Translations under genes and position numbers: made by a program
In this document: positions 3,905-27,218 of the stretch, piece after piece
How the letters are laid out: each line of letters begins with the position of its first letter
How positions within the stretch are numbered: the first letter of the stretch is position 1
Origin: Nitrospirota bacterium
Lineage (GTDB): Bacteria; Nitrospirota; Nitrospiria; Nitrospirales; Nitrospiraceae
Direction of reading: 5' to 3'
Length of the DNA stretch: 64,000 nucleotides
Assembly (NCBI GenBank): GCA_963701855.1
Contig: CAVPBK010000015.1
Location: 1 to 64,000, forward strand
The notes under the pieces: generated by a model
The model's input: the letters and a program-made list of their open reading frames with translations, nothing else
Told to the model about the DNA's origin: nothing
Database searches by the model: none

Positions 3905-4169
3905 ACACAGGCTCCTCCTTCAACGGGTTAGGCAAAAGGGATTACCCTTCGCGTAGCGCCGCGAGGAAAAGATAACAGTCGAAACGCGCGTGAATTCGCA
4001 AGTGTATCTCGAATCGACCTCCACCCCACGGATGCCATCACAACCATGTGAGAGGATTGGTCGTGAACGAGAACGGAGAGAGGGGACTGAATCCGAACCA
4101 GCTCAGACCTACTGACCTCCCTCGAGGCTTCCAGGTCGAACCGGCCCAGGTTGTCTCTCCCATGCCGGA

Positions 4170-4350
4170 TGCTGGCAGGTCTTCGGGCTCGCGAGCACTT
4201 CGGCTTTCGCCGCGTTTCTACTATCCACTGCTTTCCAGCTCCAAAGAGCCAGTGCGTGTCGTGGATTCGTTCTCGCTTACCGCTGCGGGGCAGTCCCGGA
4301 GTCGCACCGGGTTCCCTCTTACTCTCTGAGAATACTCAGAGAACCAGCAC
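4170..4350 (-). ncRNA. Cobalamin (B12) riboswitch upstream of nrdA
   Basis: Minus strand reads AAGAGGGAACCCGGTGCGACTCCGGGACTGCCCCGCAGCGGT...CACTG..GGAAAG...GAGCCCGAAGACCTGCC (B12 box). Confidence 0.92.
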
Positions 4351-4357
4351 GGGTCGC

Positions 4358-4386
4358 AGTCTATTGTGGCACCCGATATTTGTCAA
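4358..4386 (-). promoter_or_regulatory. Sigma70-type promoter for the riboswitch-nrdA transcript
   Basis: TTGACA-17 nt-TAGACT on the minus strand immediately before the riboswitch. Confidence 0.75.
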
Positions 4387-20481: not shown

Positions 20482-21819
20482 ATGAACATGCGCAAAAGAA
20501 TCGTTCGCAGCTCTAACCTTCTCACCATCACATGGGTTGTGTGCCTGCTCTTCGTGCTCGGCGGATGCTCTATTCTGCCGGGTCACTGGCGGCCAGGATG
20601 GAATCAGCCGTGGCCCGCCGACAAACCGGTGCCCGACACAGCCGGCTCATGGAAGTTGACCGAACTCGAATCGAATGACGGCCGCTTTGTCGCCCTGGCC
20701 ATATCGGGTGGCGGGAGTCGAGCCGCCAACTTCGGAGCCGCCGTCATGTTGGAGCTCCGACAGAGGGGTTTGCTGGAACAAGTGGATGTGATTTCTGGCG
20801 TGTCTGGTGGAACGCTTCCGGCCGTGTACTACGGACTCGGAGACAAGGCCGGTGCATTTACCGAACCGGCGGTTCGCGAGGCCTTGGGCTACGATTTTCA
20901 GAGCAGTTGGATTCGCCGGTGGTTTCTACCGCAGAACATCTTCCGCTATTGGCTGTCCGACTTCACCCGTTCAGATATTATGGTGCAAGTCTTCAACAAC
21001 AACCTGTACCACGACGCCACCTTTGCAGACCTCCAGCCGCATCCCAAGATCTTGATCAATTCGACCGTCCATAACGATCACACCCGGTTCACGTTTACGG
21101 ATGACCGCTTCGCCACGCTCCATTCTGTGCTCGCCCCCTATCACGTCGCCAATGCCGTGAATGCGTCATCCGCATTTCCCGGCGCATTCCAGGACGTGAC
21201 CCTGCAGTGGTATATGGAGCCGACGCAGTTCCTGCATCTCTATGACGGCGGTCCCATCGATAATCTAGGCGTACAGGCGATCACCCAATACATGAATCTG
21301 AACATTTTAGGCACGTCGCTCGATCGGCTGTTTCCCAAGGGGTGTGTCATTTTTGTCATCGACGCCACGCCATCGAGTGATCATGCTGACCTCAACACGC
21401 GTGAGTCCGATCGTACATTCGTCGACTATTTCGTCGACACCAATGCGCTCGATGCCACGGATGCCATGTTGATCGAATCCCGCCGCTCCCTACTCGAGAG
21501 AATGGGCATTCCGGTCGAGAAGCAGGATCGGGAGCCGAGGGGCCGGCTCCCGGTGAACGATCTCCGGCAATGCGGCTGCGAAGTCCGCCATATCTCGCTT
21601 CGGCATCTGCTCTATGCCGAAGTATCCGAAGCGAATGAGGAATTGGCCGAACGTGTGACGCGAATTAAGACGAAGTTTTGGCTTGCCGACGGAGAACAGA
21701 ACGATCTCTTCCAAGCCGCCAAGGTCATCATGCAGCTGCTCGACGACACACATCTATTATCGGACTCCTCGTTTAAAGTTCCTTGTGCCGGCGGACCAAC
21801 ACAGAAACCACCAGCCTGA
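20482..21819 (+). CDS. Patatin-like phospholipase, lipoprotein
   Basis: SGGGSRAA, GVSGG nucleophile elbow, DGG; lipobox LGGC. Confidence 0.85.
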   Translation: MNMRKRIVRSSNLLTITWVVCLLFVLGGCSILPGHWRPGWNQPWPADKPVPDTAGSWKLTELESNDGRFVALAISGGGSRAANFGAAVMLELRQRGLLEQVDVISGVSGGTLPAVYYGLGDKAGAFTEPAVREALGYDFQSSWIRRWFLPQNIFRYWLSDFTRSDIMVQVFNNNLYHDATFADLQPHPKILINSTVHNDHTRFTFTDDRFATLHSVLAPYHVANAVNASSAFPGAFQDVTLQWYMEPTQFLHLYDGGPIDNLGVQAITQYMNLNILGTSLDRLFPKGCVIFVIDATPSSDHADLNTRESDRTFVDYFVDTNALDATDAMLIESRRSLLERMGIPVEKQDREPRGRLPVNDLRQCGCEVRHISLRHLLYAEVSEANEELAERVTRIKTKFWLADGEQNDLFQAAKVIMQLLDDTHLLSDSSFKVPCAGGPTQKPPA

Positions 21820-22160
21820 GGGGAGGGGATGGAGCCTGATGATCTTCTGTGCTCGCGCAACGCGCACGATCAGAATGTGCTCGTCCGACGCGCGCAATCG
21901 AGGATCAACCAGGCCACCCTTTGAAGAGGGTAACGAGCAAGCTTGGAAGGAGCATCATACGTTGGACGCGCGCAGTAGAAGCTCAATCAGCCCCCATCCC
22001 TAAGAGAGAACGAGCGAGCTTGGAGGGACCATAATATTGATCGTCCGATGCGCGCAGTGAAGGACAGCCTGGCCACTCCCTAGAGAGAGGTTATACAAAG
22101 ATTGGTCGGAAAAATGTATTGAACGCGCGCAGTGGAGACCAGCTGGGCCGCTATTTTGAG
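21820..22160 (+). repeat. Family A array: one left arm plus four right-arm units about 80 bp apart
   Basis: GA(C/T)GCGCGCA(G/A)T cores at about 21877, 21965, 22047, 22123; GAGC(A/G)AGCTTGGA tails after the first two. Confidence 0.8.
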
Positions 22161-22289
22161 AGAGAGACGGGTATCACAGTTTTTCTCCCTCGTCCTATGG
22201 AAGCCAGCGTACCATCATCTGAAAGGTTCCTCATGTTGCCTCCGTCTGATTGCCAGCGCGCATGGAGTTCCACTGCTGCATGGAAAGTC

Positions 22290-22937
22290 ATGGCGATCTT
22301 CTTGCTCGGAGGACTCCTGATCGTCCTGCACGCGTCTCCTGCGCCGGCGGGGCCCGAATTCGCGCCGTCGTCAATCAAGAAAGGTGTGCTCTTAGTAGCC
22401 AGCCCGTTGCTGGAAGATCCAAATTTCCACCAAACCGTCGTGCTCATCTTAGAGCATGGGCCTCAGGGAACATTCGGGGTCATTCTGAATCGCTCCACGA
22501 AAGTCCTTCTGTCCGAAGCGCTGCCGAAGCTCACGGTGCTCGAGGGGACCAGGCATCGTGTGTTTTCGGGTGGGCCGGTTGAACAAGGCCGCCTTCTCCT
22601 GCTGTTCCGACTCAAGGAGCCTCCAGGAGATGCACGGTCGGTCTTCGATGGGATCTACGTGGGGGGGACACCGAGCACCCTGGAGCGCATCATTACACAG
22701 GCCAAACCTACCGAAACCTTCAGAGCCTTTGCAGGATCTGCCGGATGGGCTCCCAAGCAGCTGGAAGCTGAGATGCTTGTCGGCGCGTGGGGGGTCTTGC
22801 CACCGGATCCGATCGGTATGTTTGACAAAGATCCGGCCGTACTCTGGCAGGATTGTATCAGCCGGCTGCAGGGGCCGAGGGTGGTGGGGGTAACCTGGTT
22901 AGTCCCCAGTGCTCATGGAACCCCCACGATAAAATGA
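22290..22937 (+). CDS. YqgE/AlgH (DUF179) family protein; C-terminus encoded by a family A arm
   Basis: LLVASP..DPNF..TVVL..EH...G..G..LNR, GGPV, GW..KQLEAE..W. Confidence 0.8.
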   Translation: MAIFLLGGLLIVLHASPAPAGPEFAPSSIKKGVLLVASPLLEDPNFHQTVVLILEHGPQGTFGVILNRSTKVLLSEALPKLTVLEGTRHRVFSGGPVEQGRLLLLFRLKEPPGDARSVFDGIYVGGTPSTLERIITQAKPTETFRAFAGSAGWAPKQLEAEMLVGAWGVLPPDPIGMFDKDPAVLWQDCISRLQGPRVVGVTWLVPSAHGTPTIK

Positions 22938-23290
22938 CTGGGAGGACACCCACGTTAGTCCTGTGCTCCCGGAACAGAGGAGGGGATGGAGCCTGATGAT
23001 CTTCTGTGCTCGCGCAACGCGCGGTCGAGGACTCCCCTCGTTGGACGCGCGCAGTGGAAGATCAATCAGGCCCCATCCCTGAGAGAGGACGAGCGAGCTT
23101 GGAGGGATCATCTGTAGCCTCGTTCGACGGCCGCACATAGATCAAGATGGGTGCCCTCCCAGGGAAGGAATTGCAAGCAAGCTTGGAAGGGTTAATTAGA
23201 TGAATGGTGGTCGTTCGACGTGCGCAGTTGGGGACCGATCCAGGCCACCCCTTAATAGAAAATGAAACCGAGCAGGCTCGGAAGAGAAGA
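22887..23290 (+). repeat. Triple-nested family A hairpin elements
   Basis: Left arms at 22887, 22938, 22981 pair in reverse order with right arms ending at 23080, 23162, 23251. Confidence 0.8.
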
Positions 23291-23482
23291 AAATGGCAGT
23301 CTGGTCGTCCTCCTGGGTCCGACCGCTTCCCTTTCGTCCGGACGGTTGAGTATCAGGGGGTTGTTGATTATCTAACTCCCCTTAAATACCGGAATTGTTT
23401 TTGAAGATGTCGACACGATTGCTAGCAATAAGTAGCCTGGCCCCGCTTCACTCCAATCATGGAACTTGAGGCGCCGAATGTT

Positions 23483-24082: not shown

Positions 24083-24303
24083 GGAGGAGGGGATGGAGCC
24101 TGATGATCTCCTGTGCTCGCGCAACGCGCGGTCGAGGACTCCCCTCGTTGGATGCGCGCAGTGGAAGATCAATCAGCCCCCATCCCTGAGAGAGAACGAG
24201 CGAGCTTGGAGAAGGGAAGGGGAGCGGCCAGGTGCCCTTTTTGCTCGCAGAACGCGCACGATAGGAATGTGCTCGTTCGATGCGCGCAGTCAAGGGAAAC
24301 CTG
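24083..24303 (+). repeat. Two tandem family A elements
   Basis: First copy is nearly identical to 22981-23105; second has stem variant GGCCAGGTGCCCTT. Confidence 0.8.
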
Positions 24304-24410
24304 ACCGTGTAAATGCAACCATTTCAGAAAGCCGTTCGTTTGATTTCATGCCTTGAACAGGGTATTTCTATGCGGCGAGAGAGGAGTTTTCCCGAGAATA
24401 GGAGCGAGTC

Positions 24411-24986: not shown

Positions 24987-25400
24987 CGTTATGGACGCGC
25001 GCAGTGGAAGATCAATCGGGCCACATCACTGAGAGAGAACGAGAGAGCTTGGAAGGAGTAGGGAGGGCAGACTAGATGGTCTCCTGTGCTCGCGCAATGC
25101 GCGGTCGTTCCACAGGTTAAGGTTTAGGCTGAGGTTGAGCAGTGACCAATCATGCCTCGGTGTCTTTTTCCCCCTCAACTTCAACCTAAGCCTTGGCCTG
25201 CCAATGAGACGCGCGCAGTGGGAGACCAATCTAGCCCGCCCTCAAGAGAGAAGATGGAAGAGCGGTGGTCGCTCAATGTGCGCAGTAGGGGATAGATCCA
25301 GACCACCCTTCGGGGGGAAGTACGAGCAAGTTTGGACGGGGCATTGTAGTAGGAGTTGGTCCGACGTGCGCAAATGAGAATAGACCAGACCGACCCTGAA
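24987..25400 (+). repeat. Family A array with a family E insert
   Basis: Stem variant CTAGATGGTCTCC / GGAGACCAATCTAG around insert 25115-25200, flanked by extra right-arm/tail units. Confidence 0.75.
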
Positions 25401-25491: not shown

Positions 25492-26772
25492 ATGAACGAC
25501 CGACCTACTGTCTCCACCCCTCGCTCTGCCGCGGTGCTGTTTATCCTCATCACAGTCATGCTCGACATGCTGTCCTTCGGCATCATCATTCCCGTGCTGC
25601 CGAAACTCGTCGAGGAGTTTCTCTCCGGCGATACGGCCCAGGCGGCCATGATCTACGGACTGATGGGTACGACCTGGGCGGTCATGCAGTTCTTTTGCTC
25701 GCCGATTCAGGGAGCCCTGTCCGACCGGTTCGGCCGCCGGCCGATCGTGCTGCTGTCCAATCTGGGATTGGGACTCGACTATATCGTCATGGCGCTGGCG
25801 CCGACCGTCGCCTGGCTGTTCCTGGGTCGTGCCATCTCCGGCCTCGCCTCATCCAGCTTCAGCACCGCCGGTGCGTACATTGCCGACGTGACGCCTCCGG
25901 AACACCGGGCGGCGGCGTTCGGCAAGATCGGCATGGCGTTCGGCATCGGCTTCATACTCGGTCCTGCACTGGGCGGCTGGCTCGGCGAGATCGATCCGCG
26001 ACTCCCGTTTTGGGGCGCGGCGGCGCTCAGCCTGGCGAACGCCTGCTATGGGTTCTTCGTGTTGCCCGAATCCCTGACGCATGACAAGCGGATGGCCTTC
26101 TCGTGGAAGCGGGCGAATCCGGTCGGCTCGCTGGTGCTGTTGCGCTCGCACCATGAACTCTTCGGGCTCGCGGCCGTCGCCTTCTTCGGCTATCTGGCCC
26201 ATACGGTGTTGCCGAACGTGTCGGTGCTGTATATGGGTTACCGGTACGGATGGGGGACCGCCACAGTCGGTCTGACGCTCGCCGGCGTCGGCGTGGCCGT
26301 GATGATCGTCCAGGGGGGGCTGATCCGTCCGGTCACGGCCCGATTAGGCTTGCGCACGACATTGCTGGTGGGGTTGCTCTGCGGAGCGATCGGGTTTTCG
26401 GTCTACGGCGTGGCGCCCGAGGGATGGATCTTTTGGCTGGGCATTCCCGTCATGGCCTTTTGGGGCCTCGCGGGTCCGGCGGCGCAGGCACTGATGAGTC
26501 GCCGCGTGAGCAGTTCCGAGCAGGGCCAACTCCAGGGAGCCATTGCAAGCATCAACGGCTTAACCGGTCTGATCGGGCCGATCCTCTTCACGCAAAGCTT
26601 TGCGTATTTCATCGGACCGAGCGCCGCCTGGCACCTGCCGGGCGCGCCTTTCTTATTAGCCTCGCTCATGATGCTCAGCGCCGCAGCCATTGCCTGGTGG
26701 GCGACGCATCCCGGTCGATCAGCCATCCCGAACGTTGAATCAGTCGGCACAAGTAGGAGGGATGGAGCCTGA
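25492..26772 (+). CDS. MFS drug:H+ antiporter, TetA/DHA1-like
   Basis: GALSDRFGRRP motif A, GFILGPALGG motif C, about 12 TM segments. Confidence 0.88.
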   Translation: MNDRPTVSTPRSAAVLFILITVMLDMLSFGIIIPVLPKLVEEFLSGDTAQAAMIYGLMGTTWAVMQFFCSPIQGALSDRFGRRPIVLLSNLGLGLDYIVMALAPTVAWLFLGRAISGLASSSFSTAGAYIADVTPPEHRAAAFGKIGMAFGIGFILGPALGGWLGEIDPRLPFWGAAALSLANACYGFFVLPESLTHDKRMAFSWKRANPVGSLVLLRSHHELFGLAAVAFFGYLAHTVLPNVSVLYMGYRYGWGTATVGLTLAGVGVAVMIVQGGLIRPVTARLGLRTTLLVGLLCGAIGFSVYGVAPEGWIFWLGIPVMAFWGLAGPAAQALMSRRVSSSEQGQLQGAIASINGLTGLIGPILFTQSFAYFIGPSAAWHLPGAPFLLASLMMLSAAAIAWWATHPGRSAIPNVESVGTSRRDGA

Positions 26773-27218
26773 TGATCTTCTTTGCTCGCGCAACGCGCGG
26801 TCTCAGAAGGATGGGGAGGGTAGCCTGGTCGTCCTCCTGCTCGTGGAACGCGCACGATCAGAATGTGCTCGTTCGACGCGCGCAATCGAGGATCGACCAG
26901 GCCACCCTTGAAAATGAAATGGGGAAGTGGGAAGACGCGCGCAGTGGAAGATCAATCAGCCCCCATCCCTTGAGAAATAACGAGCGAGTGTGGAGGATCA
27001 TTTATAGCCTCGTTCGACGGCCGCACTTTGGGAGACCGAAACGGTGTCAGGAACAGTTTCCCGGTCCGTGTATTCCGGGGACGGCCTTCATTAGAACGAG
27101 GAAACTGTTCCTGACACCGTTCATTCTCCCCAGGTGCCCTTCTTGCTCACAGAACGCGCACGGTGAAACAGTGCTCGTCCGATGCGCGCAATAGCGGGCA
27201 GTCTCGTCCACTCCCCTT
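26756..27218 (+). repeat. Nested family A elements plus a REP-like palindrome
   Basis: Outer arms 26757/26970 enclose inner hairpin 26814-26909 (CCTGGTCGTCCTC / GAGGATCGACCAGG); 27040-27123 is AACGGTGTCAGGAACAGTTTC...GAAACTGTTCCTGACACCGTT. Confidence 0.78.

What the first reader, a model, noticed from the sequence alone, without database searches (positions are those of the whole stretch)
22887..23290. Russian-doll nesting: three hairpin elements inserted one inside another
Left arms L1 (GGGGTAACCTGGTTAGTCCCC, 22887), L2 (CTGGGAGGACACCCA, 22938) and L3 (AGGGGATGGAGCCTGATGATCTTC, 22981) are followed by right arms in mirror order. These are R3 (GAAGATCAATCAGGCCCCATCCCT, to 23080), R2 (TGGGTGCCCTCCCAG, to 23162) and R1 (GGGGACCGATCCAGGCCACCCC, to 23251), each with its own tail. 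A two-level nest occurs at 26757-26970. Inference: the element targets the loop of a resident copy, so arrays record insertion order. This would also explain the about 80-bp right-arm ladders at 21870-22160.
Basis: partly seen in the sequence, partly recalled or inferred. Interest (0 to 1): 0.78.

Follow-up and report, generated by a model that had tools for sequence, protein, structure and literature searches.

The report
Self-nesting hairpin repeats in Nitrospira
Three copies of a small hairpin-shaped DNA repeat really do sit one inside another here, and related species carry the same site with none, one or two layers, so this looks like a small mobile element that inserts into the tip of copies already present.

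Summary
The three arm pairs lie at the stated coordinates. Each left arm pairs far better with its mirror-order right arm than with the other two, and both DNA strands fold into the three-layer nest.

The pieces belong to a dispersed family of about 130-145 nt. This 4.3-Mb comammox Nitrospira genome holds 136 left and 174 right half-modules in 123 clusters. A roughly 50-nt middle core is conserved. The outer arms fall into 25 sequence types that stay self-complementary.

All 101 clusters with more than one module have a single orientation. New copies enter resident copies at two exact places in the tip, or follow a copy's tail.

At the orthologous site in 34 other species of the genus I found none, one, two or hybrid layers. 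Only this genome has three.

The 80-bp ladders are arrays that lost left arms. At least one loss was a deletion between directly repeated cores in a tandem array, not a nested one.

No mobilising enzyme was found. The genome's RAYT-like, IS200-like and small GIY-YIG genes are not flanked by this repeat.

I read it as an undescribed REPIN/MITE-like family with site-specific self-nesting. Earlier notes of this scan reported the same kind of repeat in other Nitrospira genomes.

The parts
22887..22933 (+). Outer copy (arm type 1), left half: arm 22887-22907, left core and left side of the tip 22908-22933
   Evidence: It aligns at 88-92% with the uninterrupted orthologous hairpins of G058, G082, G056 and G089.
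22934..22975 (+). Middle copy (arm type C), left half: short leader, arm 22938-22961, left core to 22975
   Evidence: It is 94.6% identical to the same arm at the orthologous site of G092 and G018.
22976..23118 (+). Inner copy (arm type A), complete: purine leader 22976-22980, left arm 22981-23004, conserved core 23005-23056, right arm 23057-23080, tail 23081-23118
   Evidence: left module 22982-23023 at 50.8 bits, right module 23037-23110 at 71.8 bits. A sibling at 24087-24211 is 96.8% identical.
23119..23206 (+). Middle copy, right half: right core 23119-23138, arm to 23162, tail 23163-23206
   Evidence: (right module 23119-23192, 28.1 bits). The junction with the outer right core is shared with G092: one continuous alignment, 88% identity, covering 75% of the 178-nt query.
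23207..23289 (+). Outer copy, right half: right side of the tip 23207-23210, right core 23211-23229, arm 23230-23251, tail 23252-23289
   Evidence: (right module 23211-23284, 39.5 bits).
21825..22164 (+). Ladder: one left module (type A) followed by four right modules about 80 nt apart. The left arm pairs with the second right arm. The other three right arms have no partner.
   Evidence: (pair 21826..21974).
26758..26996 (+). Two-level nest: outer type A copy with a type 2 copy (26811-26934) in its apical loop
   Evidence: modules L 26759, L 26815, R 26868, R 26934.
24089..24305 (+). Tandem pair of copies. The second starts directly after the tail of the first.
24992..25342 (+). Array R-L-R-R. 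Its hairpin 25063..25217 carries an unrelated small palindromic insert in the tip.

Best explanation
This is a pile-up of a non-autonomous, hairpin-shaped mobile DNA repeat of the REPIN/MITE kind, so far undescribed, found in most sampled genomes of this family, the Nitrospiraceae (65 of 87).

Anatomy. One unit has a short purine-rich leader, a left arm of about 22 nt, a conserved middle core of about 50 nt that carries a small variable tip hairpin, a complementary right arm, and a conserved tail of 35-45 nt.

Shown:
- the unit is dispersed and always intact as a hairpin of fixed core length;
- arm sequence differs between subfamilies but stays paired;
- copies are added in one orientation only, at a few exact places in a resident copy: inside the purine-rich apical loop, in place of the whole tip directly after the left core, or directly after the tail. 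These give nests and tandems;
- the same genomic site has 0, 1, 2 or 3 layers in different species.

Inferred:
- the unit moves as folded single-stranded DNA, and a structure-specific enzyme recognises the conserved core;
- it is pasted next to a purine-rich motif that the element itself carries in its loop, left core and tail, which is why it lands in its own kind;
- afterwards, deletions between the directly repeated cores or leaders remove left arms and leave right-arm ladders and hybrid hairpins.

The enzyme is not identified.
For: Dispersed family:
- BLAST of the inner copy gives 99 matches in the genome. 22 cover more than 100 nt, and many are split exactly at the tip.
- nhmmer finds 136 left and 174 right modules in 123 clusters.

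Hairpin integrity:
- 116 of 174 right arms have a complementary left arm upstream, against 7 of 174 downstream.
- 94 of 136 left arms have a partner downstream, against 7 of 136 upstream.
- 89 of the 116 pairs have a core of 46-51 nt.

Covarying arms:
- there are 25 arm types;
- a type's own right arm is the best partner in 23 of 25 and second best in 2;
- duplex energy is -21.0 kcal/mol for own partners against -9.9 for others.

One orientation: 101 of 101 multi-module clusters.

Site-specific entry:
- 14 left modules lie in a resident apical loop. 13 of these share one junction, all in hosts with the type A style of tip.
- 9 lie directly after a resident left core. All 9 inserts are type A, the hosts have different arm types, and the host tip is always missing.
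- 11 lie after a tail.
- Modules make up about 0.4% of the genome, yet 23 of 136 left modules are nested.

Orthologous series.

Recent copying:
- copies within the genome are 90-97% identical;
- type A copies in other species are up to 96% identical, while the neighbouring gene is 72-87% identical.

Decay by deletion: G094 compared with this genome.
Against: - No enzyme is linked to the family. The one RAYT-like gene (C11) is flanked by a different 25-nt inverted repeat. The three IS200-like copies have unrelated end hairpins. The one small GIY-YIG gene is not flanked by this core.
- No pair of arms flanks a transposase.
- No target duplication or clean end could be defined in unique DNA. The 78 left modules outside other repeats share only a purine-rich left flank, often next to a stop codon.
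- The conserved middle with variable ends is the reverse of a classical MITE.
- In 9 of 9 cases a type A entry replaces about 20 nt of the host rather than simply inserting.
- Four of the loop-type nests are copies of one composite, so they are not independent events.
- Inner copies are not consistently younger.
- Gains and losses were not polarised on a species tree.
- The nearest relative held is only 87% identical in the flanking gene.
Confidence: 0.62

Rival explanations
1. Cassette exchange by recombination, not transposition. The conserved left core, right core and tail act as short homologies. Whole hairpins or halves are copied from one array into another by gene conversion or template switching, and unequal crossing-over then shuffles and deletes arms. 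Nests arose rarely and spread by conversion.
For: - The deletion that separates this genome from G094 lies exactly between two directly repeated right cores.
- Hybrid hairpins occur, with a left arm of one type and a right arm of another, at the orthologous site in G092 and G049.
- Type A entry replaces the host tip as a conversion tract bounded by the cores would.
- Four loci carry the same composite nest.
Against: - In the 9 type A nests the host left core keeps its own subfamily-specific variants right up to the junction. A conversion tract would have to end within a few bases each time.
- Simple unequal crossing-over between tandem copies cannot make a nest.
- Dispersal to 123 clusters, 78 left modules in otherwise unique contexts and strict single orientation still need a way to reach new sites.
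Confidence: 0.18
2. A functional structured element kept by the host: an RNA or DNA hairpin at gene ends that acts like REP sequences (transcript 3' end protection, or a protein binding site). Its multiplication is secondary and the conserved core is a protein binding site.
For: - The core is conserved across genera of the family, up to 96-98% over about 47 nt. Complete genomes of other genera hold only 6-17 matches each.
- The arms covary.
- Between co-directional genes the element has the gene's orientation in 53 cases against 16. It is more often found between convergent genes (34) than divergent genes (20) (crude ORF calls).
- Many copies start right after a stop codon.
Against: - The strand that folds better is the one opposite to the usual transcript: 86 of 89 hairpins with DNA parameters and 68 of 89 with RNA parameters.
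- There is no Rfam match, and no terminator-like T run follows the hairpins.
- Content at one site turns over faster than species diverge. That is not expected of a locus-specific function.
- This reading does not explain nesting. It is not exclusive of mobility.
Confidence: 0.15
3. Chance palindromes or an assembly artefact of a repeat-rich metagenome-derived genome.
For: The genome is in 15 contigs. The shared core of about 50 nt could mislead a short-read assembler.
Against: - 0 of 3000 random windows reach the observed arm pairing.
- Misjoins would break complementarity rather than produce three correctly nested pairs.
- Two-layer nests and the same junctions occur in independent assemblies (G013, G047, G049, G052, G092).
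Confidence: 0.03

Closest known systems
REPINs (REP doublets forming hairpins) mobilised by RAYT transposases, Pseudomonas fluorescens SBW25 (Bertels and Rainey 2011, PMC3116915; passages read)
   Same: - Both are extragenic hairpins of about 100 nt in over 100 copies, with compensatory changes across the hairpin.
- Singlet halves are read as decayed doublets.
- Tandem clusters occur.
[quoted passage not shown]
   Different: - In REPINs the conserved parts are the two REPs at the ends and the spacer varies. Here the middle is conserved and the outer arms vary.
- Here nesting is frequent, occurs at fixed positions and reaches three layers.
- The genome's only RAYT-like gene is flanked by another repeat.
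REP/BIME mosaics of enterobacteria, and insertion sequences that target REPs: IS1397, IS621, ISPpu9 (Delihas 2011, PMC3184786, passage read; Tobes and Pareja 2006, PMC1525189, listing only)
   Same: Small palindromic units are combined with fixed linker motifs into mosaics between genes. A hairpin repeat serves as a specific landing site for a mobile element.
   Different: - Per the abstract of Nunvar et al. 2010 (PMC2817692, listing), BIMEs have REPs in alternating orientation. Here 101 of 101 clusters have one orientation.
- The published REP-targeting elements are full insertion sequences with a transposase. Here the incoming element is another copy of the hairpin itself.
IS200/IS605-type single-strand transposition and its derived small palindromic elements (Ton-Hoang et al. 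2012, PMC3333891, abstract start only; mechanism recalled)
   Same: Both are strand-specific and orientation-specific. In both, recognition is by folded hairpins rather than terminal inverted repeats, no evident target duplication is made, and entry is next to a short motif that can also end the element. That last feature would give head-to-tail arrays.
   Different: - Those elements have two separate subterminal hairpins, not one long hairpin.
- The resident IS200-like copies share no sequence with this family.
- The target motif here is only loosely defined.
Ssn GIY-YIG single-strand nucleases and their NTS/SRM hairpin repeats (Chenal et al. 2025, PMC11893778; abstract and two sections read)
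   Same: A hairpin repeat in hundreds of copies, clustered around genes and recognised as single-stranded DNA by a small dedicated enzyme.
   Different: - Ssn genes are typically flanked by their own repeat. The one small GIY-YIG gene here has other repeat families upstream and none of this core.
- The paper describes Ssn as a nuclease that modulates transformation, not as a transposase.

Membership tests
REPIN-RAYT system | A RAYT (Y1 HUH) gene flanked by the same REP/REPIN family | tested here: not met
   The genome has four Y1_Tnp matches. The one long RAYT-like gene (229 aa, 64 bits to PF01797) is flanked by a 25-nt perfect inverted repeat unrelated to this family. BLAST of the element against the four loci gave only 9-16 nt chance matches.
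REPIN-RAYT system | Two inverted conserved REPs separated by a variable spacer, folding into a hairpin | tested here: inconclusive
   The hairpin is present. Conservation is inverted, though: the core is fixed and the arms fall into 25 types.
MITE (miniature inverted-repeat transposable element) | Terminal inverted repeats shared with an autonomous insertion sequence in the same or related genomes | tested here: not met
   No arm pair flanks a transposase within 6 kb: of 58 unpaired right arms, 3 scored 28 or more upstream against 7 in the downstream control. The one strong pair flanks two metabolic genes. No inverted pairs around a gene were seen in five other genomes.
MITE (miniature inverted-repeat transposable element) | Target-site duplication of fixed length | tested here: inconclusive
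   Loop-type junctions can be read as a 5-nt direct repeat or as the element's own tail end. The filled and empty orthologous sites of the outer copy show no duplication.
IS200/IS605-derived palindromic elements | Strand-specific insertion next to a fixed short motif, without duplication | tested here: inconclusive
   Single orientation holds in 101 of 101 clusters. In 58 of 136 left modules, the nested, tandem and family-X classes, the host side of the junction ends in a purine run. The other 78 show no fixed motif.
IS200/IS605-derived palindromic elements | End hairpins related to those of a resident IS200/IS605 copy | tested here: not met
   Three 550-bp IS200-like copies have their own end hairpins and share no similarity with this family.
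BIME | Palindromic units in alternating orientation separated by fixed linkers | tested here: not met
   All modules of every multi-module cluster have one orientation.
Ssn / SRM repeats | A small GIY-YIG gene flanked by the repeat | tested here: not met
   There is one small GIY-YIG gene (96 aa). Its upstream region holds three other repeat families and its downstream region holds none of this core.
Known RNA family (Rfam 15) | A match at or above a family's gathering score | tested here: not met
   The whole window matched only a cobalamin riboswitch at 4157-4363. The permissive scan of 21780-23320 gave only a chance miRNA match at E = 0.84.

The most novel reading that the evidence does not exclude
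The conserved 50-nt core is the attachment site of an unidentified structure-specific single-strand recombinase of Nitrospiraceae. This enzyme swaps the small tip hairpin for whole hairpin units. The family would then be a hairpin-scaffold cassette system: it would work like an integron on folded DNA, but the cassettes would be copies of the site itself. The hypervariable, covarying arms would be kept different between layers so that each layer folds only with its own partner.
Probability: 0.15. Interest if true: 0.8.

Novelty: new variant of a known kind. Interest (0 to 1): 0.5.

Why it matters
Small hairpin repeats (REP, REPIN, MITE) are common, but how they move is known for very few. This family offers unusually clean material for that question:
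- fixed entry points inside its own folded tip;
- strict orientation;
- a core conserved across genera, with arms that change while staying paired;
- one genomic site that shows 0 to 3 layers across species.

These features make the recognition site and the order of events testable, and they point to an enzyme still to be found in an environmentally important group of nitrifiers.

There is also a practical side. The arrays fill many intergenic gaps, alter gene ends (the upstream AlgH-like gene reads into the outer copy) and will confuse the assembly and annotation of Nitrospira genomes.

Tried and rejected
- Reads. Runs holding the stretch were found: two soil DNA runs hold 0.80 and 0.77 of its sampled words, and the RNA runs hold 0.08 or less. 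I drew nothing on layer polymorphism, expression or habitat from them.
- Inner versus outer age. I compared arm scores and module bit scores in 14 nested relations. Inner was better in 8 against 6 for arm scores and in 4 against 10 for bit scores. The bit scores are biased by the model's leaning to type A. No conclusion.
- Replication strand. GC skew on the 1.6-Mb contig against element orientation gave only a weak trend, so I did not use it.
- Mismatch types in the arms. There are 138 A-C against 85 G-T on the left-to-right strand. The copies are not independent, so I kept this only as support for the strand asymmetry.
- Autonomous copy. Nothing was found in this genome or from the positions of core matches in five genomes of two other genera.
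- Literature. Searches for Nitrospira with REP, MITE, repeat or intergenic terms, and for nested prokaryotic MITEs, returned nothing describing this family. The library lacks most subscription journals.
- Coordinates. I read the coordinates instead.
- Not done. I did not build a covariance model or run a formal pair count on an alignment; stands in for it. I did not build a species tree to polarise gains and losses.

Full report
**What is there**

The repeat finder lists the middle and inner pairs. The outer pair came out of my own arm search.

- Duplex energies in nested order are -18.4 (outer), -18.1 (middle) and -22.9 (inner) kcal/mol.
- The six wrong combinations give -6.1 to -12.6.
- None of 3000 random windows reached any observed value.
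- Folding 22880-23295 as single-stranded DNA gives the three-layer nest on both strands (z -4.26 plus, -5.84 minus).

The boundaries, read and from the orthologues, are:

| Copy | Left part | Right part |
|---|---|---|
| Outer | 22887-22933 | 23207-23289 |
| Middle | 22934-22975 | 23119-23206 |
| Inner | 22976-23118 (complete) | |

**The family**

The window is contig 15 of a 4.30-Mb, 15-contig genome.

- The inner copy has 99 BLAST matches in the genome. 22 are near full length, and many are split at the tip.
- Profiles of the left half and the right half find 136 and 174 modules in 123 clusters.
- A unit consists of a purine-rich leader, a left arm, a conserved core carrying a small variable tip hairpin, a right arm and a conserved tail.
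- 116 of 174 right arms have a complementary left arm within 900 nt upstream, against 7 of 174 in the downstream control.
- 94 of 136 left arms have a partner downstream, against 7 of 136 upstream.
- In 89 of the 116 pairs the distance across the core is 46-51 nt. The other 27 are interrupted.
- The 89 simple hairpins have 25 different arm types. A type's own right arm is the best partner in 23 of 25 and second best in 2. Duplex energy is -21.0 kcal/mol for own partners against -9.9 for others.

So the middle is fixed and the ends vary while staying paired. That is the reverse of a classical MITE.

**Arrangement rules**

All 101 clusters with more than one module have a single orientation. The commonest patterns are:

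| Pattern | Clusters |
|---|---|
| LR | 58 |
| R alone | 14 |
| LRR | 10 |
| L alone | 8 |
| LLR | 5 |
| LRRR | 4 |
| LLRR | 3 |
| LRLR | 3 |

Among the 116 pairs I counted 14 nested relations and 3 crossings. All three crossings, and 8 cases of a shared left arm, involve neighbouring copies of one arm type and are ambiguous assignments.

The left context of the 136 left modules is:

| Context | Left modules |
|---|---|
| In the apical loop of a resident copy | 14 |
| Directly after a resident left core, host tip absent | 9 |
| Directly after a resident tail (tandem) | 11 |
| After a fixed motif of another, more abundant repeat family | 24 |
| Other DNA with a purine-rich flank, often next to a stop codon | 78 |

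- 13 of the 14 loop entries share one junction, always in hosts with the type A style of tip.
- All 9 entries after a left core are type A, in hosts of several arm types.
- In every nested and tandem class the host side of the junction ends in a purine run.
- Four loop-type nests are copies of one composite, so they are not independent events.

**The orthologous site**

I searched for the AlgH-like gene upstream (Pfam) in 85 genomes of the genus, counting this one. 47 have it. 35 loci, including this one, hold its 3' end. Relatives are 72-87% identical in the gene.

- No module of this family lies downstream in 6 loci (G095, G091, G073, G004, G020, and G099 with only 254 nt held).
- An uninterrupted hairpin of the outer arm type sits at the same place in G058, G056, G009 and G082, and in a variant form in G023 and G057.
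- Compared with these, the copy here is split inside its apical loop, with about three host bases changed or lost.
- G049, G047 and G052 have a type A copy inside that left arm. Their outer right arm is missing or unrecognisable.
- G013 has a complete two-layer nest with other outer arms.
- G092 has the middle-type copy uninterrupted. It is joined on its right to the same outer right core and arm as here (one continuous alignment, 88% identity, covering 75% of the 178-nt query). On its left it has a different arm type.
- G011 and G087 have a type A hairpin followed by the outer right arm without its left arm.
- Only this genome has three complete layers.

The outermost type is the most widely shared. 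The series also shows that outer arms are lost and replaced.

**The ladder**

In 21825-22164 the single left arm pairs with the second right arm.

- The first right arm lies inside that hairpin and starts at the tip of another subfamily. In G003 the same place holds the complete inner hairpin.
- In the closest relative, G094, the type A hairpin is uninterrupted and the third right arm has its own left arm as a tandem neighbour.
- This genome lacks exactly the segment between two directly repeated right cores.

Ladders are therefore decayed arrays, both nested and tandem. They are not a direct product of nesting.

**Who moves it**

I found no enzyme.

- The genome has three 550-bp IS200-like copies with unrelated end hairpins.
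- It has one RAYT-like gene flanked by a different 25-nt inverted repeat. That repeat also occurs as a hairpin at about 27036-27130 in the window.
- No arm pair flanks a transposase.
- There is no Rfam family.

**Distribution**

BLAST of the inner copy against 201 genomes of the order gave these counts:

| Group | Genomes with a match |
|---|---|
| Own family | 65 of 87 |
| Sample of this genus | 12 of 12 |
| Second family | 0 of 87 |
| Third family (one copy 95% identical) | 2 of 21 |
| Fourth family | 0 of 5 |

In other genera mainly the core matches, up to 96-98% over about 47 nt. Five genomes of two other genera, four of them in a single contig, hold 6-17 core matches each.

**Strand and context**

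- The strand complementary to the left-to-right reading folds more stably in 86 of 89 hairpins with DNA parameters (24 of 25 arm types) and in 68 of 89 with RNA parameters.
- With crude ORF calls, elements between co-directional genes have the genes' orientation in 53 cases against 16.

So the better-folding strand is usually not the transcript. I cannot explain this. It argues against a purely RNA-level role and fits a single-strand DNA form.

**Reading**

The best account is a non-autonomous mobile hairpin that is recognised through its folded, conserved core. It is pasted, in one orientation, next to a purine-rich motif that it carries in its own loop, left core and tail. Arrays then decay by deletion between repeated cores.

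- Shown: the anatomy, the covariation, the orientation rule, the fixed junctions and the layer series.
- Inferred: the single-strand mechanism, the target rule and the direction of change.
- Recombination between the cores certainly acts and may also spread nests.
- A host function for the core is not excluded.

**Comparison**

The closest described things are REPINs. Bertels and Rainey note a few REPINs inserted into or next to others. Next come REP/BIME mosaics and REP-targeting insertion sequences. The membership features I could test for REPIN-RAYT, MITE, IS200/IS605 derivatives, BIME and Ssn repeats are not met or are inconclusive.

My searches found no description of this family. Notes of this scan reported the same kind of repeat in other Nitrospira genomes.

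Noticed in passing
window 22119-22937 (+): The AlgH-like gene has lost the stop codon that most relatives have just before the repeat. Its reading frame runs on through the outer left arm to a stop at 22935-22937, so its last residues are encoded by the repeat.
   Followed up: partly
window about 27036-27130; L004 977-1001 and 1910-1934: A hairpin made of the 25-nt inverted repeat that flanks the genome's only RAYT-like gene sits inside the array downstream of the MFS gene. The repeat has only 6, 9 or 14 copies genome-wide at 0, 1 or 2 mismatches.
   Followed up: partly
genome-wide; for example L047 1185-1350 and the left flanks listed: A second, more abundant hairpin repeat family has its left motif in 70, 210 or 352 copies at 0, 1 or 2 mismatches. 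It often starts on a stop codon and serves as landing site for 24 of 136 left modules of the family studied here.
   Followed up: partly
window 25063-25217; C11:117028; L025 (G094): At least three further small palindromic inserts occupy the tip or right core of copies of this family. One has a G+C-rich mini hairpin followed by a G-rich box. The same hot spot is therefore used by unrelated small repeats.
   Followed up: no
G000 C6:837063-839526 (L049 163-375 and 2414-2626): Two arrays in inverted orientation (213 nt at 95% and 86 nt at 98% complementary) bracket a 310-aa and a 188-aa ORF that look, by eye and without any family search, like agmatinase and pyruvoyl-type arginine decarboxylase genes. 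This could be an invertible or duplicated segment.
   Followed up: partly
all 89 simple hairpins: The strand opposite to the usual direction of the neighbouring genes folds more stably in nearly all copies. No explanation so far.
   Followed up: partly
G132:C81:1877-2009 and G119:C20:5-103: Two genomes of another family of the order hold a single copy each (95% and 85% identical), while 19 others of that family have none. This points to contamination of those assemblies or to transfer.
   Followed up: no
window 23296-23315: Just after the nest lies a lone left-arm-like stretch of another arm type without a core. It is probably a remnant.
   Followed up: no
window 4157-4363 (-): Cobalamin riboswitch, 114.4 bits.
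   Followed up: no
L013 (G018), downstream of the orthologous gene: The same order of left arms (type B, type C, type A) as in a three-layer nest is cut off by what looks, by eye and without any family search, like an IS3-type insertion sequence, so the right side is displaced.
   Followed up: no
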